Source of the DNA: a virus
Taxonomy: Duplodnaviria; Caudoviricetes
DNA: 64,000 nucleotides
IMG/VR virus record: IMGVR_UViG_3300028048_000065
Span: 1 to 64,000 of that record
Strand: one strand, 5' to 3'
Both the position numbers and the translations under genes were made by a program. Below, piece by piece: positions 13,401 through 58,532 of this stretch. The notes under the pieces were generated by a model. It was not told where the DNA came from. It made no database searches and saw only the letters and a list, made by a program, of their open reading frames with translations. Each line of letters begins with the position of its first letter. The stretch's first letter is position 1.

Positions 13401-15098
13401 TTATGCGCTGTATGCTGCCTCGAAGCAGTCATAACGAGGAACATTAAGCTGTTCAAGAAGAGCCTCCATAGGATTGGTCTTATCAGACAAAACCATCTTG
13501 AGGAGATTCGTGCTATAACCCGAAACCATGATACAACCGCGGTCATCAACCTTGAAAGGCAGGGCAAGACGATTGCTGCAATTTACTCTCCAAAAGGTAA
13601 TAATTGGCATTTTATACCCAGCATTCTTGAAGCGCTGATTAATCTCCTGCATAAAGGTCTTGTCAACAGGAGTACGATAACTGTACCAGCCATGACGATT
13701 TACCTTAGCATCGCACATGGAATCGAACTCGCCATCAGAGACAATGAGAATGCGCTCAGGCAGGTCAGACTGGGGAGAATGGTTGTCAATAGCGGTCTTA
13801 AGAATCAGGTCAAAGACCTTTTCCAGATTGGTATTAGAGCCATCCTGACACTCCCAAGTCTTACGAAGCTTGTTACAGAGGCTATCGTTATCATTAAAGC
13901 GTACAATATGAGGGTCAGCACTAAAGGTGATATACTTGTTTGCAAAAGCACCCTTGAGATGGTCTGCGCAATAAATGGCGAGAGACATAGCAACATCAAT
14001 GCAACGCATATTAGTGTTACCACCAATACCACTCTCCATAGAACCAGAGCAGTCACACACGACAAGCATACCCTTATCATCGGGAATCATATCAGGCAAA
14101 GCCTTCCACATACCCTCAAGAGTATCATCAGCCCTCTGAGGAAGTCCATACCAACGACCACTCAAATTCATGTACTTATTGACAATATCACAGGGATTCG
14201 CCACAGAAGCATTAATCTTAGCCTCACCAGTCTTGAGAGCAGCAAGAAAAGCCTGACGGCGCTCAGTATCATGGCGCAGGAATGCCTTGTTGTAGTTAAG
14301 ATTAGCCTTAGAGGGAACAGTTTCGTAGTCGATAGCAGCCCAATTATCCGAAGACATCTTGCGCTCAACAACATCAAGATACTTACGAAGAGCAGACAGA
14401 GCCTTACGATAGTTGCGTTCAGTCATGTTCAACTGCTTTGCAGTCCAAAGACCATTATCACGGGTCTGCTTAGAGTGAGAATTGGGCTTATCAAGCCACT
14501 TTCCAAGCAGAGAAATAGACTTATGCTGCTTCATGTTCTCCATGTCCTCAGCAAACTGCTTCTTAAGGAAATCGCGGACAGCCTTTTCAGAAGTGGGGTT
14601 GCCACGGAACTGATAAAGCATATCATAGCGAGAATACTCGCCAATCAGAGGAACGAGCTTTGCAGCAATGCTTGCACCGCCATTCTTTACAAGGTCACGA
14701 ATGACAATCTGAGTGAAGCGACGCTCGCCAGCACCGCAACGAATGTCCATCGTATAGCCAAGGAAACGCATAGCAAGATAAGGATTCTCATTGAAAGCCT
14801 TGCGCCAATCGGTGACAATCTGCTTCTCGTCCAGAGAACGGTAGCTTACCAACTTGGTAAACATATCAAGAAGAGCAGAAGAAGTAGTGGAATATGCCAC
14901 AGCACCATTGGTGGTATAGGTCATATTGTCGGGCAAAGACTTAGGAACAACCGCACGAACATAGAAGCCCTTGTTAGTCTTTTCCATCTTGTCGAAGAAC
15001 TTCTCCTTGTCCGACTTCTGACGCATAGGCTTTTCGGGCTTAGGAGACCAAGCCTTGTTAGAGTTCTTCTTGGAATTCTTGTTAATGTTATTATACAT
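13401..15098 (-). CDS. DUF2828-family protein (helical repeat + vWA; Ro60/TROVE-like architecture)
   Basis: TTNGAVAYSTT, DIRCGAGER, SLLGKW, IDYETVPSKA, vWA MIDAS DCSGSM, TNLEKVF, ILIVSDGEFD, SGYS; start moved to ATG 15098 (GGAG RBS); codon usage looks highly expressed. Confidence 0.85.
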   Translation of the reverse strand: MYNNINKNSKKNSNKAWSPKPEKPMRQKSDKEKFFDKMEKTNKGFYVRAVVPKSLPDNMTYTTNGAVAYSTTSSALLDMFTKLVSYRSLDEKQIVTDWRKAFNENPYLAMRFLGYTMDIRCGAGERRFTQIVIRDLVKNGGASIAAKLVPLIGEYSRYDMLYQFRGNPTSEKAVRDFLKKQFAEDMENMKQHKSISLLGKWLDKPNSHSKQTRDNGLWTAKQLNMTERNYRKALSALRKYLDVVERKMSSDNWAAIDYETVPSKANLNYNKAFLRHDTERRQAFLAALKTGEAKINASVANPCDIVNKYMNLSGRWYGLPQRADDTLEGMWKALPDMIPDDKGMLVVCDCSGSMESGIGGNTNMRCIDVAMSLAIYCADHLKGAFANKYITFSADPHIVRFNDNDSLCNKLRKTWECQDGSNTNLEKVFDLILKTAIDNHSPQSDLPERILIVSDGEFDSMCDAKVNRHGWYSYRTPVDKTFMQEINQRFKNAGYKMPIITFWRVNCSNRLALPFKVDDRGCIMVSGYSTNLLKMVLSDKTNPMEALLEQLNVPRYDCFEAAYSA

Positions 15099-15111
15099 AA
15101 TATTCTCCATT

Positions 15112-22934: not shown

Positions 22935-23349
22935 TTTTTGTTTCTCCTTAAATTTGTCTAATTAAAATGTTTAAATTGTTTACTGTTACTATATATAAAA
23001 CTACAGGTGTAGCTTATTTTTTATTGTTTGAAACCAAAGCTACACCTGTATGGTTAGTAGCAAATATGACGAAGAGAATTAAAAATCTCAAGTCCTGCAA
23101 TATACCGTGCTTCTCGTAGACAATCTTCCATAAGAGCGTCCATTGCAGCGTGTCCTAAACCACCGTTCAAACTTGCGTCCCGCTCACAATCGTTGTAGAT
23201 TTGCTGAGCTCTTGCTTCAAATTCTTCATGGGTCATTCTGTTTTGGTTCCTTTTGCTGGGGTAAAATGTGTCTTGCGAAAGGACACATGAGGTACACTTA
23301 AGTTATTCGGAAACAAGGGAGAAGAATTAACTTCTCCCTTGAGAAGCGG

Positions 23350-23422
23350 CAGAGGAGATGGGACTCTCACCCATAACCTGCGGTTTTAGAGACCGCCGCT
23401 CTGATAATTGCGCTACTCCTCG
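23350..23422 (-). tRNA. amber-decoding tRNA (anticodon CUA), probably Gln
   Basis: cloverleaf: GAGGAG/CTCCTC acceptor with 1-72 mismatch, G73, anticodon arm GCGGT-CT-CTA-AA-ACCGC, T arm ATGGG/CCCAT with atypical loop. Confidence 0.85.
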
Positions 23423-23445
23423 ATATTATTCCATCTTAGAAAGGA

Positions 23446-23577
23446 CTCGACGCTAAAGAAAGGAAACTCACCACAAAGCTAATAAAACAACACACAAATT
23501 TGATTGAAGGAATCAATGATTTAGTAAATAAAATAGTATTTTTATCTAATTATAACCTATGTTGCTGTAAGCGTCGA
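23446..23577 (-). ncRNA. ACAGCAA-stem element E1
   Basis: TCGACGCT-TACAGCAA...AGCGTCGAG. Confidence 0.75.
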
Positions 23578-23600
23578 TTTGAAAACGTATTTTTGACAAT

Positions 23601-23676
23601 TGGTAGAGCCCCTGTGACTCGAACACAGAATGGAGGATTATAAGTCCTCTCGTTTGACCTATTAACGTAGAGCTCC
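23601..23676 (-). tRNA. tRNA-Ile(UAU)
   Basis: cloverleaf, loop CT-TAT-AA, encoded CCA. Confidence 0.9.
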
Positions 23677-23681
23677 ATATT

Positions 23682-23744
23682 CTCGACCCTGTTTGAATTC
23701 TTAATTACCAGTTAAGTCCAAAAAAAGTTTGCTGTAAGGGTCGA
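23682..23744 (-). ncRNA. ACAGCAA-stem element E2 carrying a Thr(GGU)-type anticodon stem-loop
   Basis: TCGACCCT-TACAGCAA...CTTAA-CTGGTAA-TTAAG...AGGGTCGAG. Confidence 0.8.
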
Positions 23745-23791
23745 TAAAGAAAGGAAATTTTTATGATAAAAACTTATTAGGTTTTATCTTA

Positions 23792-24085
23792 TTAAACAAG
23801 AATCTGACTTGCAGTTTTCTTCTGCTCTCCCTCAAATTCATAATCAAGATGAGGATACATCTCAGGCTTTGTAATCTTGTTTTTACAAACAGGACACTGA
23901 TAAGTAAACTGTGGGGGATAAGTCATTAGCTGTGTAGGCTGTAGTTCCATCTCAGCCTTACACTTTGCACAATGAAGAGTCACCTTGAAAGTGCGAACTG
24001 CGTTTGTCTGTTGCTCATAAGTGTCAAGAACTGACTTATCAGCACCAATAATGGAAGGACCATTAGCAGTATTGATAATATCCAT
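23792..24085 (-). CDS. zinc-ribbon protein
   Basis: CAKC and CPVC. Confidence 0.6.
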   Translation of the reverse strand: MDIINTANGPSIIGADKSVLDTYEQQTNAVRTFKVTLHCAKCKAEMELQPTQLMTYPPQFTYQCPVCKNKITKPEMYPHLDYEFEGEQKKTASQILV

Positions 24086-24135
24086 TTAAAATGTTACTCC
24101 TTATTTTTGTTTTCAGGATTTATGCTATTTTTAGT

Positions 24136-24199
24136 CTCGACTCATTGTACAAATATAAACCTAAATTATATGTAGAAGAAAAATTGCTGTGAGAGTCGA
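24136..24199 (-). ncRNA. ACAGCAA-stem element E3 carrying a Leu(UAG)-type anticodon stem-loop
   Basis: TCGACTC-TCACAGCAA...TATAA-TTTAGGT-TTATA...GAGTCGAG. Confidence 0.8.
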
Positions 24200-24230
24200 T
24201 ATGGAGGAATCGAATGATTCATAATCATTG

Positions 24231-24306
24231 TGGCAGCCGATGAATGGGTCGAACATTCGTATGCGACGGTCAAAGCGTCGTGCCTTTACCACTTGGCTAA
24301 TCGGCT
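24231..24306 (-). tRNA. tRNA-Gln(UUG)
   Basis: CGACG-CT-TTG-AC-CGTCG, G73, CCA. Confidence 0.9.
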
Positions 24307-24445
24307 ATATTTAAAAAAACAAGAACTTCGGTTGGGACTTTCGATTCCTCACCCAACAACTCCAACATACCCTCCGAAGAGGTTGACCGACAGGAGGCAG
24401 TTTAATTTATTTATCGTGTTTTACTACCACGAAGTTCTTGGTTTT

Positions 24446-24516
24446 AGTGGAAGAGGGTAATCGAAACCCCACTTACGGAATCGGAGACCGTGGTTCTACC
24501 ATTAAACTACTTCCAC
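24446..24516 (-). tRNA. atypical tRNA, anticodon CCG (Arg) with U73, no encoded CCA
   Basis: GTGGAAG/CTTCCAC acceptor, D and T arms present, 31-39 mismatch. Confidence 0.6.
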
Positions 24517-24533
24517 ATTTATTTTATATACTA

Positions 24534-24562
24534 AGTATAGCACATATTTTGTAGTTTGTCAA
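24534..24562 (-). promoter_or_regulatory. sigmaA promoter upstream of the tRNA block ending in the CUA tRNA
   Basis: TTGACA-17-TATACT with TG. Confidence 0.75.
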
Positions 24563-24590
24563 GTCTTTTTTAGACTTTATTTTTCTCAAA

Positions 24591-24747
24591 CAAGAGAAGA
24601 AGTGCTCAACCATTGTGCAAAAAAGAAAGGAGGCGATTTCAAAATGAAACCCAAAAAAATGAACAGAAAGTTGAGAACAAACAAAGGAGAACTGTTAGTT
24701 ACAAACTATACCAATTGACAAAGCAATGGGAGCACGTTCTTCTCTTG
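24591..24747 (-). ncRNA. candidate sRNA with its own promoter (24759-24787)
   Basis: terminal inverted repeat; CU-rich anti-SD tracts. Confidence 0.5.
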
Positions 24748-24764
24748 ATTGTGACTTAATTATA

Positions 24765-25082
24765 TCACAGATTTTCAAGATTGTCAAGAGTTTTTTCAGA
24801 ATTATTTTTTGTGTTTTTAGAAACTCCATAAATCTCCTGAGTTACCTTGCGACGCTCAAGCTCATTCTTATAAGCCTTTTCACGAGCATCAACGTTCATG
24901 TCATTATATGCAGCAACATAAACTTCATTACCACACTCTTCACAGAACGCAATTTTTTCATCATAACTAAAATTAATTCCACGAATAGTAAGATTAACTT
25001 TAGCTACATCTGTATCATAGCCAACCATCTTATTACAATGAATACAAAAGACCGTTGGCTTAGAATTCTTAAAATCAAACAT
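24765..25082 (-). CDS. YgiT/MqsA-type zinc finger protein
   Basis: CIHC...IRG...CEECGNEVY. Confidence 0.6.
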   Translation of the reverse strand: MFDFKNSKPTVFCIHCNKMVGYDTDVAKVNLTIRGINFSYDEKIAFCEECGNEVYVAAYNDMNVDAREKAYKNELERRKVTQEIYGVSKNTKNNSEKTLDNLENL

Positions 25083-25139
25083 CAGAATAAAACTCCGTTT
25101 TTATTTATCTATTTTAACCCAAATTTGCAACTTTTTGGG

Positions 25140-25652
25140 TCAAATTTGACGGTTTTCGCGTGTATTTACCCAATATCCCGCCATGCTATATTTGGGGACA
25201 CCAGTAACCTCGGTTGCAATCATCTCAGGCCAAGGGAATTTATATTTCTTAGCTTCTGCTGTAGATTCAAATTCTACCTCAGCATAAGCCCAAGTATCAT
25301 CAACAATACTAATTTCAATAGGCTTTTGACCATCCATATAGACAGTAAAACGTTCTTTCTTGATAGCCTTTTTTCCTGTTTCCTTACTCATTTTAGCAAC
25401 AAACTTTCGAGCAGAAAAAAGCTTATCTTCAAACTCAAGCCTTTCAAGTCCATTACCAACTTTGTAAGTCAACTTGCCATTATTAGAGCCAGCTTTATAA
25501 CGAATACGAGTTTCGCTGATGATGTGATTATCAGAATCAACGATTATCTCAAGATAATACTGCCACAACTGCTCTCTAATAACGTTAGCTTTATCTGGAA
25601 AATTAAAATCTCCGCCCTTTAGAAGCCATTTACGTTCAATTTCTTTACTCAT
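25140..25652 (-). CDS. CYTH (triphosphate tunnel metalloenzyme) domain protein
   Basis: EIERKW, KLTYK, AEVEF, EVTG motifs. Confidence 0.85.
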   Translation of the reverse strand: MSKEIERKWLLKGGDFNFPDKANVIREQLWQYYLEIIVDSDNHIISETRIRYKAGSNNGKLTYKVGNGLERLEFEDKLFSARKFVAKMSKETGKKAIKKERFTVYMDGQKPIEISIVDDTWAYAEVEFESTAEAKKYKFPWPEMIATEVTGVPKYSMAGYWVNTRENRQI

Positions 25653-25722
25653 ATTTTACCTCATCAGGTTCATAGTTTTTGTTGAGGATATAATTATTGG
25701 GTCATTTCCTTTTCTATAAAGT

Positions 25723-25798
25723 TGGGGTCTGAGGCAAGAATCGAACTTGCGTAGCTCTGCTTATGAGACAGAGCAGGTAAACCAACAACCTCTCAGAC
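25723..25798 (-). tRNA. tRNA with CAU anticodon (Met or Ile2)
   Basis: loop CT-CAT-AA, TTCGA T arm, CCA; unusual C73. Confidence 0.8.
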
Positions 25799-25821
25799 AT
25801 ATTTCTATTTTATTTTTAAAA

Positions 25822-25951
25822 CTCGACACATTTTATACATTCTGTTGCTCTACCCGTTGAGCTATGTCCGCATATTGGTGCGGACAGCAGGATTCGAACC
25901 TACAACACACAGGCCCTTGCCAGTATTAAATTTTGTTGCTGTTAGTGTCGA
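25822..25951 (-). ncRNA. ACAGCAA-stem element E4 containing a circularly permuted tRNA mimic (YrlA-like)
   Basis: T arm GTAGG-TTCGAAT-CCTGC, acceptor TGTCCGC-ACCAATAT-GCGGACA, D arm GCTC-AACGGGTA-GAGC. Confidence 0.85.
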
Positions 25952-25983
25952 AGCAAAATGAGGAGGCTCATCACATCGAGCCG

Positions 25984-26060
25984 TGGTAGCTCGGGTGGAA
26001 TTCGAATCCACACTTGACGGATTTTGAATCCGCTCTCTCTGCCGATTGGAGTACCGAGCC
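25984..26060 (-). tRNA. tRNA-Leu(CAA) with short variable loop
   Basis: GCGGA-TT-CAA-AA-TCCGT, A73, CCA. Confidence 0.85.
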
Positions 26061-26462
26061 ATATTCAGTTTAGCAACTACTGACAGACCAGCTTTCCACA
26101 TATCTGCCCTCGGTTCGATTGGGGAGAGGTTTACAGGAATATTCCTACAAACTTGCACCCAATTATCTCGGTCATTTTCATTGCTAAACTTAATATTTGC
26201 TGTCTCTCCAAGCTGTCACCGCTAATATGGTTGTAGGTTCTGGACGGTCTGAACTTAGTTACGCCATACACACATCTTAACCTTGAGAGATAGTCCATCG
26301 GTTAAGCGAAGCTCTATCTTGATAAATTTGCAAGATACTATCATGCTTTCTGGTTCGAGGTGCTTATATCGGAGTCACTATAGCGCATTTTTTCATCCCC
26401 TTACACAATTTTCAAAGCAGCAACTCGTTTACTAATTGTTTATCGGTTTATCCGAACCTCGA

Positions 26463-26584
26463 TGGACCCTACAACTGGAATCGAACCAGAATACCTCCCC
26501 CGATGCGTCTGTTATCACTAAAGAGCTACTTTAGTGTTTGCTCAACAGTCAGTTAATAGGTGTGCTCCTTACACCAAGTAGGGA
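26463..26584 (-). ncRNA. tRNA-like RNA with ~60-nt insertion replacing the anticodon loop
   Basis: CCCTAC/GTAGGG acceptor, TGGTGTAAGGAGCAC D arm, CTGG-TTCGATT-CCAG T arm, CCA. Confidence 0.6.
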
Positions 26585-26705
26585 TATAAAAGGGAACCCA
26601 GCTTTATCTCGCCCTTAACGACCGTTCCCAATGCCGAACACCATACTCGTGCTTTTACTGCTTCTAATACTACGAATTTATTACGAGCAGCTATAATAAA
26701 TTCTG

Positions 26706-26792
26706 TGGCGGAGACAACAGGACTCGAACCTGTATTACCTTTCGGTAAGCTTGTTTAGCAAACAAGAGAGATGACCATTACTCCATGCCTCC
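26706..26792 (-). tRNA. tRNA-Ser(GCU)
   Basis: CTTGT-TT-GCT-AA-ACAAG, long variable arm, G73, CCA. Confidence 0.9.
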
Positions 26793-26807
26793 ATATAAGT
26801 GAGCAAA

Positions 26808-26931
26808 CTCGACACTTTTATTCAGGCCAGCCAGACTTAGACATTCCTTGCTCAAGGGTTATTCTAATAGGGAGTCGAACCCTACATGATGTTTTTTCAA
26901 GAACATTAAGTAAAATTGCTGTGAGTGTCGA
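26808..26931 (-). ncRNA. ACAGCAA-stem element E5 (Ser(UGA)-like loop plus T arm)
   Basis: TCGACACT-CACAGCAA...ATGTT-CTTGAAAA-AACAT...TAGGG-TTCGACT-CCCTA...AGTGTCGAG. Confidence 0.75.
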
Positions 26932-27078
26932 ATGGACATTAAACATTTACAAAAGAATCTGGTAGTCGGATTGAACTTCCTCTTCACCGACTGTTCGGAG
27001 GGTTAGTCACCTTAATCCTCTTGAAGAGTAGGATTCTCATACAGTCTAACCGTAGCATGAGTTATGCTTAATTACCTC

Positions 27079-27138
27079 AGTAACTAAGAAGTTGTTTAGA
27101 TAAGTTCGCTACGCTTACCTCGTGGAATATCCACGCAC
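27079..27138. repeat. 60-bp direct repeat, copy 1
   Basis: 59/60 identical to 27353-27412. Confidence 0.95.
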
Positions 27139-27352
27139 TCAGAGGTTGCTCATGAGCGATGTAACTCTTCTAATCGGAGCGAAGCTACCCCTTTCTTCAT
27201 ATTGAATAGAGTCAACCAAAGATGAACGCTCATTGGTAGCGCCTGTTGGTTTCGGAAATAGGTCCCGTCAGATTTTTCACATCACCGAGGTATCTGAAAC
27301 ATACCTTTGCCTTAACTTAAAGGATTAAGTTTGAGTGATTAATCACACCTAT

Positions 27353-27412
27353 AGTAACTAAGAAGTTGTTTAGGTAAGTTCGCTACGCTTACCTCGTGGA
27401 ATATCCACGCAC
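27353..27412. repeat. 60-bp direct repeat, copy 2
   Basis: 59/60 identical to 27079-27138. Confidence 0.95.
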
Positions 27413-27775
27413 GATTTTCCACCACTCGGGATTCTTATCACATTAGCACCCTGATAAGTTTCACCAACTATATATCGTGTTCTTCCCTTTTCATTTTCTG
27501 CTTCGAACGCCAATTGCTTGCGCTCTACTCCAAGACTTCGGACGGGAGTTGGGGCTTTAGCTTAACGGACTAAAGATGAGTTCAAATATATGGAACACCG
27601 ACAAGGCTTTAGCCATCCTTGCTGAATCGGGCAGTTAAATATAAGTTACATTCGCTATCTGCCAATTGAATGTAAATTATTGAATGGGTGATGTTTTGTT
27701 AGTCTATCACCAAGACTATGGGAGTTGGGTTGTTTTGAGACTCACCAACCATTCGTCTTCCTTGATTGTGTACTT

Positions 27776-27804
27776 AGTATAGCACATTTTGCTTTGTTTG
27801 TCAA
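27776..27804 (-). promoter_or_regulatory. sigmaA promoter upstream of the long non-coding region
   Basis: TTGACA-17-TATACT with TG. Confidence 0.75.
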
Positions 27805-27852
27805 GGGTTTTTAAAATATTTTTTAAAAATTTTTCAAAAACCTTAAAGCATC

Positions 27853-28141
27853 TAAAAACAAGATGTGGTATCTATGACCCAGTTTCATGGTGACTTATTA
27901 CAGTGGGAGCATCTAAAGGTTGTTACCCTTTACTTGAAGTCTCTCCCGACAACCCTTTTATCAAGGGCAGCGTCTAATCCGTATCATTCGGTTTTCCCGA
28001 CTCATTTCGGATTGCGGATTTCTTACCTACCGCCGTAATACCTACTGACCTGTCTATGCCAGCCCCGACCCGTCTTATCATTATACACAGACTATAAAAT
28101 CTGCTTTATTGAGTCAACTGCCGTTAGCCATCTTGTTTTTA
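27853..28141 (-). ncRNA. candidate ~290-nt structured ncRNA
   Basis: 13-bp terminal inverted repeat, promoter at 28152-28180 just upstream, raised GC, no ORF in the track. Confidence 0.55.
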
Positions 28142-28322
28142 GTGTAACTTAAGTATATCACAACATTTTGTGTTTGTCAAGGGGTTTTTAAACTTTTTTG
28201 AAAACTTTTTAAGAAATCTTTTTTTGTGACTTCTTAATTTATATATTAAGTATAGCACAGATTCCTAAGTTTGTCAAGAAGTTTAGAATAAAAATTTTCT
28301 TTTATTATGTATTGAAAATCAT

Positions 28323-28625
28323 TTAATCTTCAACCTCAATTCTAAGAATCTCTTTCTGGTTGGGCAACGTAATTGCTTCTAAACTAAGGTTTGTTTTAAC
28401 AAAATAATCTTGTGAAAATTCAATAGATAGATTGTTTAATGGTTGAACCATTTGAGTGATAAAACAATTCTTTCCATTTATTTTAGTTTTTATCTTTAGA
28501 GCAAAAGGCTTTCCAGAATCAAGGTCAAGACAAGACATATCAAAATAGCTTGTGCCGCAATACGGACATTTATTTAATTCAATATTAAATGGAGCCCCGC
28601 AGTTAATACAATTTCTACTTGACAT
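28323..28625 (-). CDS. zinc-ribbon protein
   Basis: CINCGAP and CPYCG. Confidence 0.6.
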   Translation of the reverse strand: MSSRNCINCGAPFNIELNKCPYCGTSYFDMSCLDLDSGKPFALKIKTKINGKNCFITQMVQPLNNLSIEFSQDYFVKTNLSLEAITLPNQKEILRIEVED

Positions 28626-28652
28626 GACAAATCCTTTTCTGCGTTAAATTTT

Positions 28653-28726
28653 CTCGACACTATATTATGTACGTTTATGAACCCAAATCATATGTATTTA
28701 ATATAAAAAGTTGCTGTGAGTGTCGA
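28653..28726 (-). ncRNA. ACAGCAA-stem element E6 carrying a Pro(UGG)-type anticodon stem-loop
   Basis: TCGACACT-CACAGCAA...TATGA-TTTGGGT-TCATA...AGTGTCGAG. Confidence 0.8.
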
Positions 28727-28861
28727 TAAGTAGTATGGTAAATGGTAGTCGGGTTTAGTATAAAGTTCACCGACCATTCGCTTAGCCTTCACTGTATCGT
28801 AGTTAAGGAGACCAAATATTACACGGGCAAAGTAAGTTTACACATTCTTGCCACTGGTGGC

Positions 28862-28937
28862 TGGCGGGAAATGTAAGGCTTGAACTTACGCCATCATGAT
28901 TAACAGTCATGCGCTCTACCAACTGAGCTAATCTCCC
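28862..28937 (-). tRNA. tRNA-Asn(GUU)
   Basis: CATGA-CT-GTT-AA-TCATG, G73, CCA. Confidence 0.95.
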
Positions 28938-29310
28938 ATTTCCTGTTTTATAATTTTCGTTGGAATTCTTCAACTTTCTTTTTAACTGTGGTCACAGAAG
29001 CGTGAGAACAATTATTATGTCTGAAAAGAAGATTGCCGTTTTTATCGAAAACCTCAAAATATCCAATCTTTTTATTATTTTTTACATAAAGACCAAGATA
29101 TTCAAAATCTTTTCCAGACCAAGGTTTCATATTAAACACTCCTTTTTGGTCGGCTTCTTGCTTAGATTATCACATCGTCTACTTAGGAGTCATAGTCCTG
29201 TTCATAAATCGCCATGTATACCTAACGATTCCGCAGTTTTCAGCAAGCATTGTTATTCTTTGTGGGGTAAGCCGATAATCGCCCACATCAGTTTGGAGCT
29301 ACCAAACAAT

Positions 29311-29387
29311 TGGTGCGCCAGAGGAGACTCGAACTCCTGACCTATTGCTTAAAAGGCAATTGCTGCTACCTACTGAGCTACTGGCGC
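29311..29387 (-). tRNA. tRNA-Lys(UUU)
   Basis: ATTGC-CT-TTT-AA-GCAAT, CCA. Confidence 0.95.
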
Positions 29388-29800
29388 ATATTATTTCGGT
29401 TTGGGAACGCTACTGGTTTTCAAGTGTTCCAACTCAAAATAGGAGCGTACTAACAAGAAACGCAGTAGGTTCTTCTACCTATTTAAATAGCAAGATTGAA
29501 TGTGATTGGCATACCACGTTTTAGGGAACTTTGAAACCACTCTTGCTAAATAAAACAAATTTTTTATTCTTCTTTTAATAAGAAGGTGTGTACCCAAAAC
29601 CGTTAAAATGGTACACTCGCTACCTTTTAATTTTATAGTTGGGAAGGTGTCTTTTAGCAACAACCCCAAGTAAGTGAGGCTGGTGAACTACAATTCCCCG
29701 TGAGTTATCTTACTTTCTCACAGTTACCGATTAACCAACTTTATGTATTTATTATACCATATTGATTTTGATTTGTCAATAGGTTAATAACTTTTTTATT

Positions 29801-29929
29801 CTCGACTCTTTAATAAATTCACGAAGCTGTCTTACCACTTGACTAATCCTCTCAGGGAAAGGATTATGGAATCGAACCATAGTTTGCTTCTTTGGTAAGA
29901 ATATTATAAAAAATTGCTGTAAGAGTCGA
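29801..29929 (-). ncRNA. ACAGCAA-stem element E7 containing a circularly permuted tRNA mimic (YrlA-like)
   Basis: GAAGC/GCTTC stem, T arm TATGG-TTCGATT-CCATA, looped acceptor ATCCT/AGGAT, D arm GTC-AAGTGGTAA-GAC. Confidence 0.85.
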
Positions 29930-30107
29930 TGAGATAAATCATGGAGCGCTCTTTCGAGCTTGTCTTTATATTACCACAAACATTTCTGTTTGTCAAGACC
30001 TTTTTAAACTTTTTTCAGAAATTTTGATTACTTTTTATTCATGCTACGAATATAGTCAATGACAAACATAACCCACATTCCAAGAATAAAAGGAATAATA
30101 ACATTCA

Positions 30108-30361
30108 TTATAGATACTTCTCTGGAATCTTAATACAGTTGTTGTCCCACTTTTTATAAGCGTCAAGATATGCTTCGTCCTTATCACCATTTAGAGAGTG
30201 GTGGAAAGAAGAGCCTTCCAGTTCTGCAAAGTCTTACAATACCACACAATATATACATCAAAGTTGGGTACAGTATCAGACTTATCCAAATGATTAATTA
30301 CATAATTACGGACAGCGTTCTTACTAAATTCAAAAAATTTTACATCAGTCATTTTCGTCAT
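30108..30361 (-). pseudogene. frameshifted DUF6275-like gene
   Basis: VYIVWYCKTLQNWKALLSTTL* then NGDKDEAYLDAYKKW in another frame. Confidence 0.65.
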
Positions 30362-30386
30362 ATATCCTTAAATAAATATAAAACAA

Positions 30387-30470
30387 TATAGGATAGGGTA
30401 ATCGAAACCCATCTATTCTCATAGACATTCTCTGCGCTGAGAATCTTAGACCTTCTAAGTTTATCCTATA
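30387..30470 (-). ncRNA. tRNA-like cloverleaf with enlarged anticodon loop
   Basis: TATAGGATA/TATCCTATA, CTTAG/CTAAG, ATTCTCA-16nt-TGAGAAT, GGGT-TTCGATT-ACCC. Confidence 0.6.
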
Positions 30471-30471
30471 A

Positions 30472-30546
30472 TGGTGATGGGTAGCAGAATCGAACTGCTG
30501 TTAAAAGGATGAAAACCTTTTGTCTTAACCACTTGACCAACCCACC
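30472..30546 (-). tRNA. tRNA-Glu(UUC)
   Basis: AAAGG-TT-TTC-AT-CCTTT, CCA. Confidence 0.95.
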
Positions 30547-55717: not shown

Positions 55718-56206
55718 TTAGAATTTGCCAGAATCTCCAAAGCCCTCTGCTCCACGAGAAGTCTCATCAAGATTGTCAGTCTCTTCAAACTCTGTCAGGA
55801 TTACTGGTGCAAGCATAAACTGTGCAATTCGCTGCCCATGCTCAATAATCTGAGTCTCCGAAGAATCGTTATGGAGAGCTACAATGATTTCGCCACGGTA
55901 GTTTGAATCAATACATCCTACGGCGTTAGCAGGACGCAATCCCTGTTTCGTTGCAATACCACTGCGAGCATAAATAGCACCCCAATAACCATTAGGAATT
56001 GCCATTGCTAAACCTGTTCCAACCTTTACAGTGGTATGAGGAAGAATCTTCAAACCATTACGCCCTTCTGTGCTACCCCAAGGAATAAAAGTATCATTGG
56101 GAATGTCAGCATACAGGTCAAAAGCAGCGTCCTCTGCATGAGCCTTTGTCGGAATCTTTGCTGTCTCGGTCAACTTCTTAATCTTTACATTAACCATTGT
56201 AATCAC
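55718..56206 (-). CDS. dut: dUTPase
   Basis: AAFDL, ARSG, GCIDSNYRGE, RIAQ, RGAEGFGDSG. Confidence 0.95.
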   Translation of the reverse strand: MITMVNVKIKKLTETAKIPTKAHAEDAAFDLYADIPNDTFIPWGSTEGRNGLKILPHTTVKVGTGLAMAIPNGYWGAIYARSGIATKQGLRPANAVGCIDSNYRGEIIVALHNDSSETQIIEHGQRIAQFMLAPVILTEFEETDNLDETSRGAEGFGDSGKF

Positions 56207-57576
56207 TCTTCTTTCTTTAAATTGTTTTGTCTTTCTTTTGCTTGTCTAATAGCCTTTTCATGCTGATTCTTTAGTTTAAGAATCTCTGCGTGACGATAAG
56301 GAAAACCACGACGAATAAGATATTGAGTCTCTTTCTCATTTACCATGTTCCTTACATCACTTGCAATACACTTAGGCACATTTTCACTAATCCATACCAT
56401 CTTAAGCTTATTAATATAATTTTCAGGATAATTTTTAAGCTGGTCTTTAAGCTCTTCCATCATCTGATAATACCAATTCATAGCCGCAGTAGTACGAGTA
56501 TTAATATAATTTACAGTCTCAAGATAAAAACCCTTTACAATATCTTTGAAAGCATCGGGGACTTTAGAATAGAAATCATCATACTTGTCATAAGCCAGCG
56601 CTTCAATTACTGCATTAGGAGACACTTGCTTACTAATCACACGATGCATTAAAACGTAATCGTTTACTTTCACTTTCACGCGAAAATCATTATCGTTCTC
56701 ATCTCGCATACGGATAACCCAGCCCTCTTTTTCATTAGAAGAAAAGTTATCAACCTGAGCAAGAAGCGAATCCAGATTTTCAGAATCGTAATACTCTACC
56801 ATCTTACTATCATAAAGAGTAGCAATACTACGAACAGTATCAAAATCCATCTCAGTTCCATCAACACAAGAACGAGCAGAAATTAGATACATTCCCTCTT
56901 GTTCCTTAGTATAATGAACAACAATAGCATTTTTAGTAGAAATGAACTCAAAAATAAAAGTATAATCAGGATAATCCTTAATCATTTGCTTTTGAGAATC
57001 AGTCAAAAGACCAAATCCCTCTTTTAGTCTCCAAGATTCATTCAGACTAATAGCCTGAGAACCCGACCCAAAAATTGTTCCAGAACCATCAGAATTAGTA
57101 ATATATCGGAATTGCTGATAACTACCGTCCATTTTATTGGTAATCCAAATTTTTTGAGCAGAAGTATACTTTTCTCGAATAGCCTTTTCAGACCAATCAA
57201 AAGCATCTTCCCCCATATTCTTGAATTTATTTAGAGAACAAAGTACAAGTTCTTCTTTCTTTACATCAAAGACACAAGAACGACACTCTCGATAAAGTCC
57301 ATCATATAGATAGAAAAAGGTTTCCTCAGAATATCCCATATCACTAAGGTCAATAAAACCCTTGTAATGGAAAAGCACATATTCATTATCAATGGTCATA
57401 TCAAGAGGCTCAAATACATCAAGCAAATCCAAAAGACTTACAATATAAGCTTTTTCTGATTGTTCAGAAAGGTATTCAAGCCAATGCTTAAAATTCCAAT
57501 CTTGAATAGGATTGTGATTATAAGCATATAGAGCTTTTACTTCTTTAATATATCCAAGCAGAGGATGCTTCCACAT
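56203..57576 (-). CDS. T4 Rnl1-like RNA ligase
   Basis: KFKN, KMDGS, FEF, EGWV, RVKVK...Y. Confidence 0.85.
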   Translation of the reverse strand: MWKHPLLGYIKEVKALYAYNHNPIQDWNFKHWLEYLSEQSEKAYIVSLLDLLDVFEPLDMTIDNEYVLFHYKGFIDLSDMGYSEETFFYLYDGLYRECRSCVFDVKKEELVLCSLNKFKNMGEDAFDWSEKAIREKYTSAQKIWITNKMDGSYQQFRYITNSDGSGTIFGSGSQAISLNESWRLKEGFGLLTDSQKQMIKDYPDYTFIFEFISTKNAIVVHYTKEQEGMYLISARSCVDGTEMDFDTVRSIATLYDSKMVEYYDSENLDSLLAQVDNFSSNEKEGWVIRMRDENDNDFRVKVKVNDYVLMHRVISKQVSPNAVIEALAYDKYDDFYSKVPDAFKDIVKGFYLETVNYINTRTTAAMNWYYQMMEELKDQLKNYPENYINKLKMVWISENVPKCIASDVRNMVNEKETQYLIRRGFPYRHAEILKLKNQHEKAIRQAKERQNNLKKEE

Positions 57577-58532
57577 TACTGTGTACCACTTGCAATCCTA
57601 TCACATTTATTAAATAAGAAAAGATTATCAAGCTTTTCCTTTCCCATAATTTTCTCCCACTTTTTCTGAGCCTTTTCGGTCTCAATAAAGAAGGGCAACA
57701 TATGAAAGTTTACATAGAATAAGCACTCAAGACACTTATCATAATCTTCGAAACCAACCCATGCAAGAAGATGCATTAACTCATAACAACCCTTATTATG
57801 GTGGCTATAATAGCGACATTCACCACTACCATCAGGTTTTTCTTCCTGCGTCAACATCTTCCCATAATCATGGATTTCTGCTGCGCGAATAAGGATTTCA
57901 TTATCGGTTCGTTTTGCGACTTCTTCTGCACACTTTTGACAATGCACATCAAGAGTATACTTATGATGAGAATTGCACTGGTCAAATCCTCTCATAAAAT
58001 CTTGAATAACATCTTTATCAACTATTGTTCTTATTAATTCATCTTTAGCATAACTAAAATATCCGCTATTCCAATCAATTAAATTAATTTCATCAAACCC
58101 TTCTTCATAAAAAGGAATCTCAAATTTTCCAATCTGCTTATCAATAACATACTCAGGGACTTTTCGCTCACGCTTACGATTAAGCATCTTGCATACAGGT
58201 TCAGGAGTAGTCATAACCATAGCAATTTTACGCACATCTGAATTTTTACGAACAAGGTCAAGTAGAGGAATACGAGACTTTACATTAATACTGGTAGCAT
58301 CTACAATGACATTCATTTTCCCAATACAGTTGTTAATTCTACGACGAACTTCCTTAAAGACTTCATCATTATGAGTCTGGTCATTAATATCACCATACAA
58401 ATCAACGCGAATCTGGTCAGAGGAAACAATAATAGTTTTCTGTCCATTTCGTTCGTATACATTTTTAATGTTGTTTGCAAAAGTGGATTTACCACTTGCG
58501 ACAGGTCCAACCATAATTACAAGATTAGTCAT
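57576..58532 (-). CDS. polynucleotide kinase (AAA_33) with HD phosphohydrolase
   Basis: GPVASGKST, SSD.IR, VDAT; H..., IHDYGK, HM. Confidence 0.85.
   Translation of the reverse strand: MTNLVIMVGPVASGKSTFANNIKNVYERNGQKTIIVSSDQIRVDLYGDINDQTHNDEVFKEVRRRINNCIGKMNVIVDATSINVKSRIPLLDLVRKNSDVRKIAMVMTTPEPVCKMLNRKRERKVPEYVIDKQIGKFEIPFYEEGFDEINLIDWNSGYFSYAKDELIRTIVDKDVIQDFMRGFDQCNSHHKYTLDVHCQKCAEEVAKRTDNEILIRAAEIHDYGKMLTQEEKPDGSGECRYYSHHNKGCYELMHLLAWVGFEDYDKCLECLFYVNFHMLPFFIETEKAQKKWEKIMGKEKLDNLFLFNKCDRIASGTQ

What the first reader, a model, noticed from the sequence alone, without database searches (positions are those of the whole stretch)
29801..29996. Second permuted tRNA mimic (E7) with its own promoter
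A GAAGC/GCTTC stem encloses a T arm (TATGG TTCGATT CCATA), a loop-closed acceptor (ATCCT...AGGAT) and a D arm (GTC AAGTGGTAA GAC, similar to the phage's Glu/Gln tRNAs). Its sequence is unrelated to the E4 cargo but the topology is the same. A TTGACA-17-TAATAT promoter lies at 29968-29996. E5 holds a more degenerate version with an intact T arm.
Basis: seen in the sequence. Interest (0 to 1): 0.7.

Follow-up and report, generated by a model that had tools for sequence, protein, structure and literature searches.

The report
Phage tRNA-shaped Y-RNA-like partner RNA
This large uncultured phage encodes a roughly 130-base RNA that is a whole tRNA body without its anticodon loop, written in rearranged order and clamped by a conserved "handle"; the handle occurs in phages that carry a Ro60-shaped protein, so the RNA is probably a new variant of the tRNA-mimicking Y RNAs.

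Summary
On the minus strand, 29929-29801 reads: 8-bp closing stem, ACAGCAA, spacer, anticodon-stem 3' strand, T arm, 7-bp acceptor closed by a 5-nt loop, D arm, anticodon-stem 5' strand, stem, G. When I put the halves back in tRNA order with a dummy anticodon loop, ARAGORN calls a 72-nt tRNA. Three close orthologues and a sister clade keep every arm, with compensatory changes. A covariance model built from them finds 97 such RNAs in other phage contigs (93.7% of cells paired, 26 of 28 pairs covary). The TTGACA-17-TAATAT promoter is conserved in the orthologues but is only predicted.

E7 is one of seven handle RNAs in this window. Contigs with the handle carry a DUF2828/DUF7788 protein (23 of 27, against 1 of 30 without the handle). 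Here that protein is at 13401-15110, and its model matches only Ro60 structures. Canonical TROVE Ro60 phages use a different handle (GNCGAA). In cultured Mycobacterium, E. coli, Listeria, Enterococcus and Campylobacter phages, ACAGCAA RNAs lie right beside the gene.

Best reading: a Y-RNA-like partner RNA, a new variant of YrlA. Binding and function are untested. This scan has already noted the same system on this genome (E4) and in at least 62 other genomes.

The parts
29968..29996 (-). Predicted sigma-70-type promoter: TTGACA (29996-29991), 17-nt spacer, TAATAT (29973-29968), with TG before the -10
   Evidence: 10 of 12 matches. It belongs to the 59-nt promoter-like repeat family D1. It is conserved in L077, L082 and L113.
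29930..29961 (-). Leader of about 32 nt between the predicted start and the handle. It holds a small hairpin, GCTC-GAAA-GAGC (29959-29948).
   Evidence: the stem is kept while the loop varies (GAAA, AAAT, AAAC) in the orthologues. Whether the leader is removed is unknown.
29922..29929 (-). Handle, 5' strand of the closing stem (TCGACTCT)
   Evidence: It pairs with 29809-29802. All 8 stem pairs covary across 78 distinct family members.
29914..29920 (-). ACAGCAA motif, single-stranded, one base after the stem. It is the predicted protein-binding site.
   Evidence: It was required by the search pattern in the 212 closed elements. The next four positions hold 1-2% G, and the unselected 3'-terminal G is kept in 97%. 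It sits where the GNCGAA motif sits in canonical Y RNAs.
29891..29913 (-). A/U-rich 5' spacer of 23 nt. It contains TCTTACCA, which could pair with TGGTAAGA in the D region.
   Evidence: The alternative pairing is kept, with G.U pairs, in L082 and L113. It is broken in L077 and absent from the sister clade's predicted fold.
29823..29890 (-). Permuted tRNA body: anticodon-stem 3' strand GAAGC, variable region AAAC, T arm, 7-bp acceptor closed by CCCTG, U8-A9, D arm, A26, anticodon-stem 5' strand GCTTC
   Evidence: ARAGORN calls the re-permuted sequence a tRNA. Covariation in all arms. The G18-G19, T54-psi55-C56, A58, U8 and A14 equivalents are present in the sequence.
29810..29822 (-). 3' spacer of 13 nt
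   Evidence: Variable between clades.
29801..29809 (-). Handle, 3' strand of the closing stem (AGAGTCGA), plus the conserved unpaired terminal G (29801)
13401..15110 (-). Candidate protein partner: 569 aa with DUF2828 and DUF7788 (the latter vWA-like). The predicted fold is Ro60-like.
   Evidence: Pfam. AlphaFold2 model with pLDDT 69. The top 12 PDB matches are all Ro60/TROVE, E 2.6e-7 to 2.8e-5. Co-occurrence with the handle.

Best explanation
E7 is the gene of a small non-coding RNA of the Y-RNA kind.

- Transcription (inferred): it starts from the promoter at 29996-29968.
- Fold (shown by covariation): the two ends pair into an 8-bp clamp. ACAGCAA follows on the 5' strand and a single G follows on the 3' strand. 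The interior folds as a complete tRNA L-shape: T arm, D arm and a 7-bp acceptor sealed by a loop. The anticodon loop is replaced by the connection to the clamp.
- Protein binding (inferred from co-occurrence and from analogy with the Ro60-binding stem plus GNCGAA of YrlA): the clamp plus ACAGCAA is the binding site of the phage's Ro60-shaped DUF2828/DUF7788 protein.
- Function (speculative): the tRNA-shaped module, with a Glu/Gln-type D arm, is displayed to recruit or trap a factor that recognises the tRNA elbow and acceptor. E1-E6 display other tRNA bodies or hairpins on the same handle. The particle probably acts in the contest over tRNA between phage and host. The phage also carries an Rnl1-type RNA ligase with a polynucleotide-kinase-like neighbour. 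By synteny within the genus, the Felixounavirus orthologue of the protein is the gene reported to counter the Ppl defence.
For: Structure
- The re-permuted sequence is called a tRNA.
- In the E7 clade plus sister clade, 91% of cells are paired and 12 of 24 pairs change on both sides.
- In the wider family alignment, 93.7% of cells are paired against 62% when shuffled and at most 44% when slid. 26 of 28 pairs covary, and about 6% of cells are G.U pairs, which would be mismatches on the other strand.

Handle
- 7 copies in the window against 0.26 expected.
- The terminal G is kept in 97% of 212 elements, although the search did not select for it.

Protein
- The model's top 12 PDB matches are all Ro60.

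Pairing of handle and protein
- DUF7788 is present in 23 of 27 handle-bearing contigs against 1 of 30 without a handle (Fisher p = 7e-11).
- Among contigs at least 90% complete it is 12 of 12 against 0 of 13.
- Canonical TROVE is present in 0 of 8 handle contigs and 8 of 26 others.
- ACAGCAA RNAs lie within about 200 nt of the gene, on the same strand, in Mycobacterium phage MiniLon, E. coli phage adrianh, Listeria phage LMTA-34, Enterococcus phage VRE9_4 and Campylobacter phage NCTC12673.
- Bxz1, which has a TROVE Ro60, uses GCCGAAGG/GCCGAGAG at the same place instead.

Function hints
- Bas63 gp130, a Ro60-like gene just upstream of the tRNA genes, counters Ppl (preprint 10.1101/2024.10.10.617714).
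- Rnl1 plus a kinase lie at 56203-58532.
Against: - There is no binding, expression or end-mapping data for any ACAGCAA RNA.
- In this phage the protein gene lies 14.7 kb from E7, not beside it.
- The energy model prefers another fold of the window's E7 by about 10 kcal/mol (-34.4 against -24.7). In that fold the 5' spacer pairs with the D region.
- No intrinsic terminator follows E7, so its 3' end must come from processing or read-through.
- The protein model has only moderate confidence (pLDDT 69, TM 0.33-0.57).
- Many of the contigs counted come from one sample and are related, so the Fisher p-values overstate independence.
- The contigs scored as having no handle were checked only in the stretch fetched, not over their whole length.
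- That Bas63 gp130 is a DUF2828 orthologue is inferred from synteny within the genus. I did not check it on the Bas63 record.
Confidence: 0.62

Rival explanations
1. E7 is a free-standing tRNA decoy or sponge that works without the Ro60-like protein. The tRNA body titrates a host tRNA-binding enzyme or a defence nuclease. The clamp only stabilises the RNA ends against exonucleases.
For: The tRNA body is complete apart from the anticodon loop. YrlA modules are known substrates of TruB, DusA, RNase P and the CCA-adding enzyme (Chen et al. 2014, PMC4201824). The protein gene is not adjacent to E7 in this phage.
Against: A mere clamp would not need a fixed ACAGCAA and a 97% conserved terminal G across stems of very different sequence. 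It also would not track one protein family so closely.
Confidence: 0.15
2. E7 is a processing signal. A tRNA-like fold in the tRNA-array transcripts attracts RNase P or RNase Z to cut the precursor, and the RNA has no function once released.
For: E7 lies in a tRNA array with no terminator after it. In the sister clade a tRNA gene starts 7 nt after the handle. M. smegmatis YrlA can be cut by RNase P (PMC4201824).
Against: The sealed acceptor offers no normal 5' leader or 3' trailer. In the sister clade the acceptor is closed by a tetraloop. E7 appears to have its own promoter, and the handle's link with the protein is left unexplained.
Confidence: 0.08
3. E7 is a permuted tRNA gene that matures into a working tRNA through a circular intermediate, as in Cyanidioschyzon merolae. 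The phage RNA ligase would join the ends.
For: The gene order is permuted. The loop CCCTG could yield C73-C74-C75 after trimming. The phage encodes an Rnl1-type ligase and a kinase.
Against: No anticodon loop is encoded. The two anticodon-stem strands are separated by 23 and 13 nt of spacer plus the clamp, and there is no bulge-helix-bulge motif. Sister-clade orthologues have no CCA-like loop (AGTT or GGTT). Bacteria lack the splicing endonuclease.
Confidence: 0.04
4. E7 is a DNA-level element (a miniature mobile element with inverted ends) or a decayed tRNA pseudogene, with no RNA function.
For: The ends are inverted repeats. The copies are scattered among tRNA genes. A neighbouring segment of about 185 nt is an insertion or deletion between close relatives.
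Against: G.U pairs make the structure specific to one strand. The stems covary while their sequences diverge, which fits selection on a fold rather than on a transposase site. All copies share the strand of the tRNA genes, and the tRNA tertiary-interaction nucleotides are kept.
Confidence: 0.03

Closest known systems
YrlA, the tRNA-like Y RNA bound by Rsr/Ro60 in bacteria and in TROVE-encoding mycobacteriophages such as ET08 and Bxz1 (Chen et al. 2014, PMC4201824; Rfam RF02553)
   Same: The order of parts is the same: terminal 5'/3' stem with a short single-stranded purine-rich motif next to it, then V region, T arm, loop-closed acceptor, D arm. The genomic logic is the same: small RNAs encoded with a ring-shaped HEAT-plus-vWA protein.
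   Different: The handle motif is ACAGCAA, not GNCGAAN0-1G. The partner is DUF2828/DUF7788, and the genome has no Pfam TROVE match. E7 gives no RF02553 match at E up to 10, while E4 scores 37 bits against a gathering score of 69. There are many RNAs per genome with different cargo, and they lie inside tRNA arrays.
Bas63 gp130 (Felixounavirus), a Ro60-like protein that counters the Ppl defence (PhageMaP preprint, 10.1101/2024.10.10.617714)
   Same: It is a Ro60-shaped phage protein encoded directly upstream of the tRNA array. In the same genus, phage adrianh has the DUF2828 gene in that position, followed by four ACAGCAA RNAs.
   Different: The preprint only guessed that some annotated tRNA genes might be Y RNAs. 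It did not describe the handle RNAs, which lie in the gaps between the tRNA genes. That gp130 is the orthologue is my inference from synteny.
Thermus phage phiLo Ro60 with Yrl1 and Yrl2 (PMC12135203)
   Same: A phage-encoded Ro60 that binds phage-encoded Y-like RNAs with a 5'/3' stem. It is the best structural match to the protein here (9KOP).
   Different: It is a canonical TROVE protein. Its RNAs carry a CGAA motif, and no tRNA-like module was reported.
E4 of the same window (25951-25822)
   Same: Same handle, same permuted topology, same strand.
   Different: The tRNA body is different: a 4-bp D stem of the common GCTC/GAGC type and an acceptor loop that spells ACCA. E4 has no promoter directly upstream. 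E7 has a 3-bp Glu/Gln-type D stem and no CCA.
Circularly permuted tRNA genes of Cyanidioschyzon merolae and some green algae and archaea
   Same: The 3' half is encoded before the 5' half, and the acceptor ends are joined by a short linker.
   Different: Those genes keep an anticodon loop and bulge-helix-bulge sites, and they mature into working tRNAs. E7 has neither.

Membership tests
YrlA (Rfam RF02553; Chen et al. 2014) | Match to the family covariance model at or above the gathering score (69 bits) | tested here: not met
   E7 has no match at E up to 10 in the whole genome. E4 scores 37.1 bits. Searches found nothing either. The model also scores accepted phage YrlAs low (Bxz1 at 32.5 bits), so it is narrow.
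YrlA (Rfam RF02553; Chen et al. 2014) | GNCGAAN0-1G motif near the 5' end (proposed Rsr contact) | tested here: not met
   E7 has ACAGCAA at that place. Bxz1 has GCCGAGAG and GCCGAAGG.
YrlA (Rfam RF02553; Chen et al. 2014) | Encoded with a TROVE-domain Ro60 orthologue | tested here: not met
   PF05731 gives no match in the 149-kb record. The Ro60-shaped protein present is DUF2828/DUF7788.
YrlA (Rfam RF02553; Chen et al. 2014) | tRNA-like module in the order V, T arm, closed acceptor stem, D arm | tested here: met
ACAGCAA-handle RNAs (defined in this scan, not in the literature) | 7-8 bp covarying 5'/3' stem, one base, ACAGCAA, variable cargo, and a 3' unpaired G | tested here: met
ACAGCAA-handle RNAs (defined in this scan, not in the literature) | The genome encodes a DUF2828/DUF7788 Ro60-like protein | tested here: met
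   Window 13401-15110. Co-occurrence statistics.
ACAGCAA-handle RNAs (defined in this scan, not in the literature) | Physical binding of the RNA by the protein | not testable with these tools
   Needs EMSA, RIP or CLIP.
tRNA (RF00005) | Contiguous cloverleaf with an anticodon loop and free acceptor ends | tested here: not met
   Neither ARAGORN nor Rfam calls E7 in its native order. It is called a tRNA only after re-permutation with an added loop.
Permuted tRNA genes (C. merolae type) | An anticodon loop is present and a bulge-helix-bulge motif joins the termini | tested here: not met
   The sequence shows 23-nt and 13-nt spacers plus an 8-bp clamp instead.

The most novel reading that the evidence does not exclude
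The DUF2828 Ro60-like protein and its ACAGCAA-handle RNAs form a widespread phage particle that displays interchangeable pieces of tRNA. E7, E4 and E5 display whole bodies. I did not analyse the cargo of E1-E3 and E6; earlier scan notes read anticodon-arm look-alikes there. The particle would bait, trap or redirect host factors that attack or inspect tRNA during infection. That makes it a programmable RNA-decoy counter-defence, and E7 would be the bait shaped like a Glu/Gln-type tRNA body.
Probability: 0.25. Interest if true: 0.85.

Novelty: new variant of a known kind. Interest (0 to 1): 0.65.

Why it matters
Ro60 and Y RNAs have been known for forty years, and the purpose of the tRNA-like module in bacterial Y RNAs is still open. 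This is a second Ro60-shaped protein family with its own RNA handle, several RNAs per genome, and cargo that samples different tRNA bodies. tblastn finds homologues of the protein in 704 GenBank phage records. These include Felixounavirus, Listeria, Staphylococcus, Enterococcus, Campylobacter and Mycobacterium phages, where the RNAs sit unannotated between tRNA genes. One member of the protein family already has a counter-defence phenotype in a preprint. The question of what a tRNA-shaped Y RNA is for therefore becomes testable by ordinary phage genetics in laboratory strains. It also means that gaps in phage tRNA arrays, and entries such as 'tRNA-OTHER' or 'pseudo-tRNA', deserve a second look.

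Tried and rejected
- A blastn search of the E7 region against GenBank phages found nothing.
- Rfam at gathering and at permissive thresholds gave only chance matches (miRNA and snoRNA families) for E7.
- As a positive control I scanned phage loci that hold closed permuted tRNAs. Rfam returned no YrlA at its gathering score, so the Rfam model is too narrow to decide membership.
They had to be filtered by closure of the stem.
- My first parser used the wrong T-loop register and found almost nothing. It was corrected.
- The supplementary tables of Chen et al. 2014 are not held. I therefore tested Bxz1, a relative of ET08, directly.
- I could not find the Bas63 accession, so its orthology rests on synteny within the genus.
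- RtcB and the CCA-adding enzyme are not encoded in this 69%-complete record.
- Coding potential: two short ORFs overlap the finding's span. The 34-aa ORF 29880-29776 overlaps E7. The 30-aa ORF 29996-29904 covers the promoter, the leader and the 5' handle. I rejected both because the substitutions are compensatory in stems.
- Mammaliicoccus phage PMS3 has the protein but no element that passes my strict closure test. It has one ACAGCAA and one ACAGCGAA in the gap after the gene.

Full report
**What is there.** The window holds a minus-strand array of ten tRNA genes at 23348-30546. E7 lies between tRNA-Glu and tRNA-Lys. Read on the minus strand, 29929-29801 is, in order:
- TCGACTCT (clamp, 5' strand), T, ACAGCAA
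- a 23-nt A/U-rich spacer
- GAAGC, then AAAC
- TATGG-TTCGATT-CCATA (T arm)
- ATCCTTT-CCCTG-AGAGGAT (7-bp acceptor with one G.U, closed by a 5-nt loop)
- TA
- GTC-AAGTGGTAA-GAC (D arm)
- A, then GCTTC (pairs with GAAGC)
- a 13-nt spacer
- AGAGTCGA (clamp, 3' strand) and a final G

The equivalents of U8, A14, G18-G19, T54-psi55-C56, A58 and G53-C61 are present.

**More than chance.** The 16-nt handle pattern occurs seven times on the minus strand of the window against 0.26 expected. An eighth copy with one mismatch lies elsewhere in the 149-kb record. In every copy the variable stem position is matched by its complement at the 3' end. I joined the 5' half and the 3' half of E7 in tRNA order with a 7-nt dummy loop. 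ARAGORN then called a 72-nt tRNA at default settings. E7 is not a recent copy of any phage tRNA (at most 73% identity).

**Conservation.** Pattern scans of IMG/VR brought in three close orthologues: L077:4458-4586, L082:6335-6463 and L113:543-671. They also brought in a sister clade with a different clamp (TAGAGAC...) and a different acceptor, T-stem and anticodon-type stem sequence, but the same architecture.
- Within the E7 clade one T-stem pair runs A-U, A.C, G-C.
- Across the two clades, 91% of cells pair and 12 of 24 pairs change on both sides. Slid controls give 28-49% pairing.
- A covariance model built from these 11 sequences found 97 full-length matches in 100 sources. E7 scores 129 bits, E4 55 bits and E5 41.9 bits.
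- On that alignment (78 distinct rows) 93.7% of cells pair, against 62% when shuffled and at most 44% when slid. 26 of 28 pairs covary. The two that never vary are the G-C pairs of the T stem that are also fixed in tRNA.
- That alignment was fitted to the model, which favours the structure. The gap to the controls is large all the same.
- About 6% of cells are G.U, so the fold belongs to the minus-strand RNA.

**Promoter and ends.** TTGACA-17-TAATAT (29996-29968) scores 10 of 12 with a TG before the -10. It belongs to a 59-nt promoter-like repeat family with seven copies in the array (family D1), and it is kept in all three orthologues. Those orthologues are 89% identical overall, so this conservation is weak evidence. 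A leader of about 32 nt with a small hairpin precedes the clamp. No terminator follows E7. A second consensus promoter (29779-29751) starts 22 nt after the terminal G. The mature ends are therefore unknown. In the sister clade a tRNA gene begins 7 nt after the handle.

**The family and its partner.** Closed stem-ACAGCAA elements are common in large phage contigs. I collected 212 distinct ones of 48-198 nt. Their stems differ widely in sequence. G3, A4, C7 and U8 are favoured, positions 17-20 hold 1-2% G, and the terminal G is kept in 97% although the search did not select for it.

The window encodes a 569-aa DUF2828 + DUF7788 protein at 13401-15110. It has no sequence match in the PDB. An AlphaFold2 model built from a 30-sequence alignment (pLDDT 69) has Ro60/TROVE structures as its top 12 Foldseek matches over nearly its full length (E 2.6e-7 to 2.8e-5). 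vWA domains alone follow much lower.

I then tested co-occurrence myself.
- DUF7788 is present in 23 of 27 contigs that show a closed handle element. The four exceptions are 17-51% complete.
- It is present in 1 of 30 contigs without a handle element in the fetched stretch.
- Among contigs at least 90% complete the counts are 12 of 12 against 0 of 13.
- The contigs are not independent, and the handle-negative class was judged on the fetched stretch only.
- The canonical TROVE family shows the opposite pattern: 0 of 8 handle contigs and 8 of 26 others. Three of those eight carry closed permuted tRNAs without ACAGCAA.

**Cultured phages.** tblastn finds the protein in 704 GenBank phage records.
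- In Mycobacterium phage MiniLon the 'Ro-like RNA binding protein' is DUF2828/DUF7788, not TROVE. Three ACAGCAA RNAs follow it at once, and the middle one has a permuted tRNA body.
- In E. coli phage adrianh (Felixounavirus) four ACAGCAA RNAs fill gaps in the tRNA array just after the gene. That region is conserved in about 230 records.
- Listeria phage LMTA-34, Enterococcus phage VRE9_4 and Campylobacter phage NCTC12673 have three, one and two such RNAs directly upstream of the gene.
- In the Listeria phage, genes annotated as tRNA splicing ligase and RNA ligase lie 1-4 kb away.
- Bxz1, a relative of the ET08 phage used by Chen et al., has a TROVE Ro60 and no DUF7788. Its Y RNAs carry GCCGAGAG or GCCGAAGG where E7 carries ACAGCAA.

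The two Ro60-shaped families therefore each have their own handle.

**Comparison with the literature.** YrlA has the same order of parts, and its module is modified by TruB and DusA. In M. smegmatis it can be cut by RNase P and receive CCA. E7 fails three of four YrlA membership features (motif, TROVE partner, Rfam model) and meets the fourth (module topology). I found no paper that describes the ACAGCAA RNAs, and none that gives DUF2828 a function in RNA biology. The nearest is the PhageMaP preprint. It reports that Bas63 gp130, a Ro60-like gene directly upstream of the tRNA genes, is needed against the Ppl defence, and it guesses that some tRNA genes may be Y RNAs.

**Mechanism.**
- Shown: the fold, the handle, the family, and the co-occurrence and adjacency with the protein.
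- Inferred: the protein binds the handle, and the tRNA-shaped module is the working end.
- Speculative: the module recruits or traps a factor that reads the tRNA elbow and acceptor, in the setting of tRNA attack and repair. The phage also encodes an Rnl1-type ligase next to a polynucleotide-kinase-like protein (56203-58532).
- Against: the energy model prefers a fold in which the 5' spacer pairs with the D region (-34.4 against -24.7 kcal/mol). That pairing survives with G.U pairs in two orthologues, is broken in L077, and is absent from the sister clade, whose predicted minimum-energy fold is the cloverleaf itself.

**Earlier notes of this scan.** They reached the same reading for E4 and for the handle family on this genome and in at least 62 other genomes. 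I re-derived the fold, the Ro60-like model and the co-occurrence independently.
- the reciprocal split between TROVE with GNCGAA and DUF2828 with ACAGCAA
- the adjacency in five cultured phage groups
- the link to the Bas63 phenotype
- the anatomy of E7

Noticed in passing
window 29553-29735 (minus strand), with promoter 29779-29751: A second consensus promoter follows E7. After it comes a GC-richer, hairpin-rich segment of about 185 nt that is present in L082 and L113 but cleanly absent from L077, where the promoter runs straight into the downstream sequence. It looks like an optional inserted RNA gene. It has no Rfam match.
   Followed up: partly
window 29893-29900 with 29830-29837 (minus strand): TCTTACCA in the E7 spacer is perfectly complementary to TGGTAAGA in the D loop and stem, and it dominates the predicted minimum-energy fold. 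It is kept with G.U pairs in two orthologues and broken in the third. It may be an alternative conformer or it may be chance.
   Followed up: partly
window 56203-57576 and 57576-58532 (minus strand): An RNA ligase of the T4 Rnl1 type (PF09511, 51.5 bits) lies directly next to an AAA_33 polynucleotide-kinase-like protein. This is the classic phage pair for repairing cut tRNA.
   Followed up: partly
window 23348-23422 (minus strand): A tRNA with anticodon CUA (an amber suppressor, called 'Pyl' by ARAGORN). Several ORFs become longer when TAG is read as an amino acid, which suggests TAG recoding in part of the genome.
   Followed up: no
L259, L279 and L302 (IMG/VR contigs): These hold closed-acceptor permuted tRNA mimics without ACAGCAA, on contigs that encode a canonical TROVE Ro60. 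They are probably canonical phage YrlAs, yet none reaches the Rfam YrlA gathering score.
   Followed up: partly
L348 (Listeria phage LMTA-34) 19625-26524: Three ACAGCAA RNAs, the DUF2828 gene, a phosphohydrolase, a gene annotated 'tRNA splicing ligase', one annotated 'tRNA amidotransferase' and one annotated 'RNA ligase' lie in a single block on one strand. The layout recalls the bacterial rsr-yrlBA-rtcBA operon.
   Followed up: no
L140, L145, L150 and other loci with AGGATAC-type handles: In another subclass the spacer before the T arm holds an intact anticodon-like hairpin (for example a CTTCTAA loop). There the handle seems to leave the tRNA between the D arm and the anticodon arm, not through the anticodon loop.
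   Followed up: no
G000:C1:139776-139791 (outside the window): An eighth handle-like site with one mismatch (TCGTCGCTAACAGCAA), far from the tRNA array.
   Followed up: no
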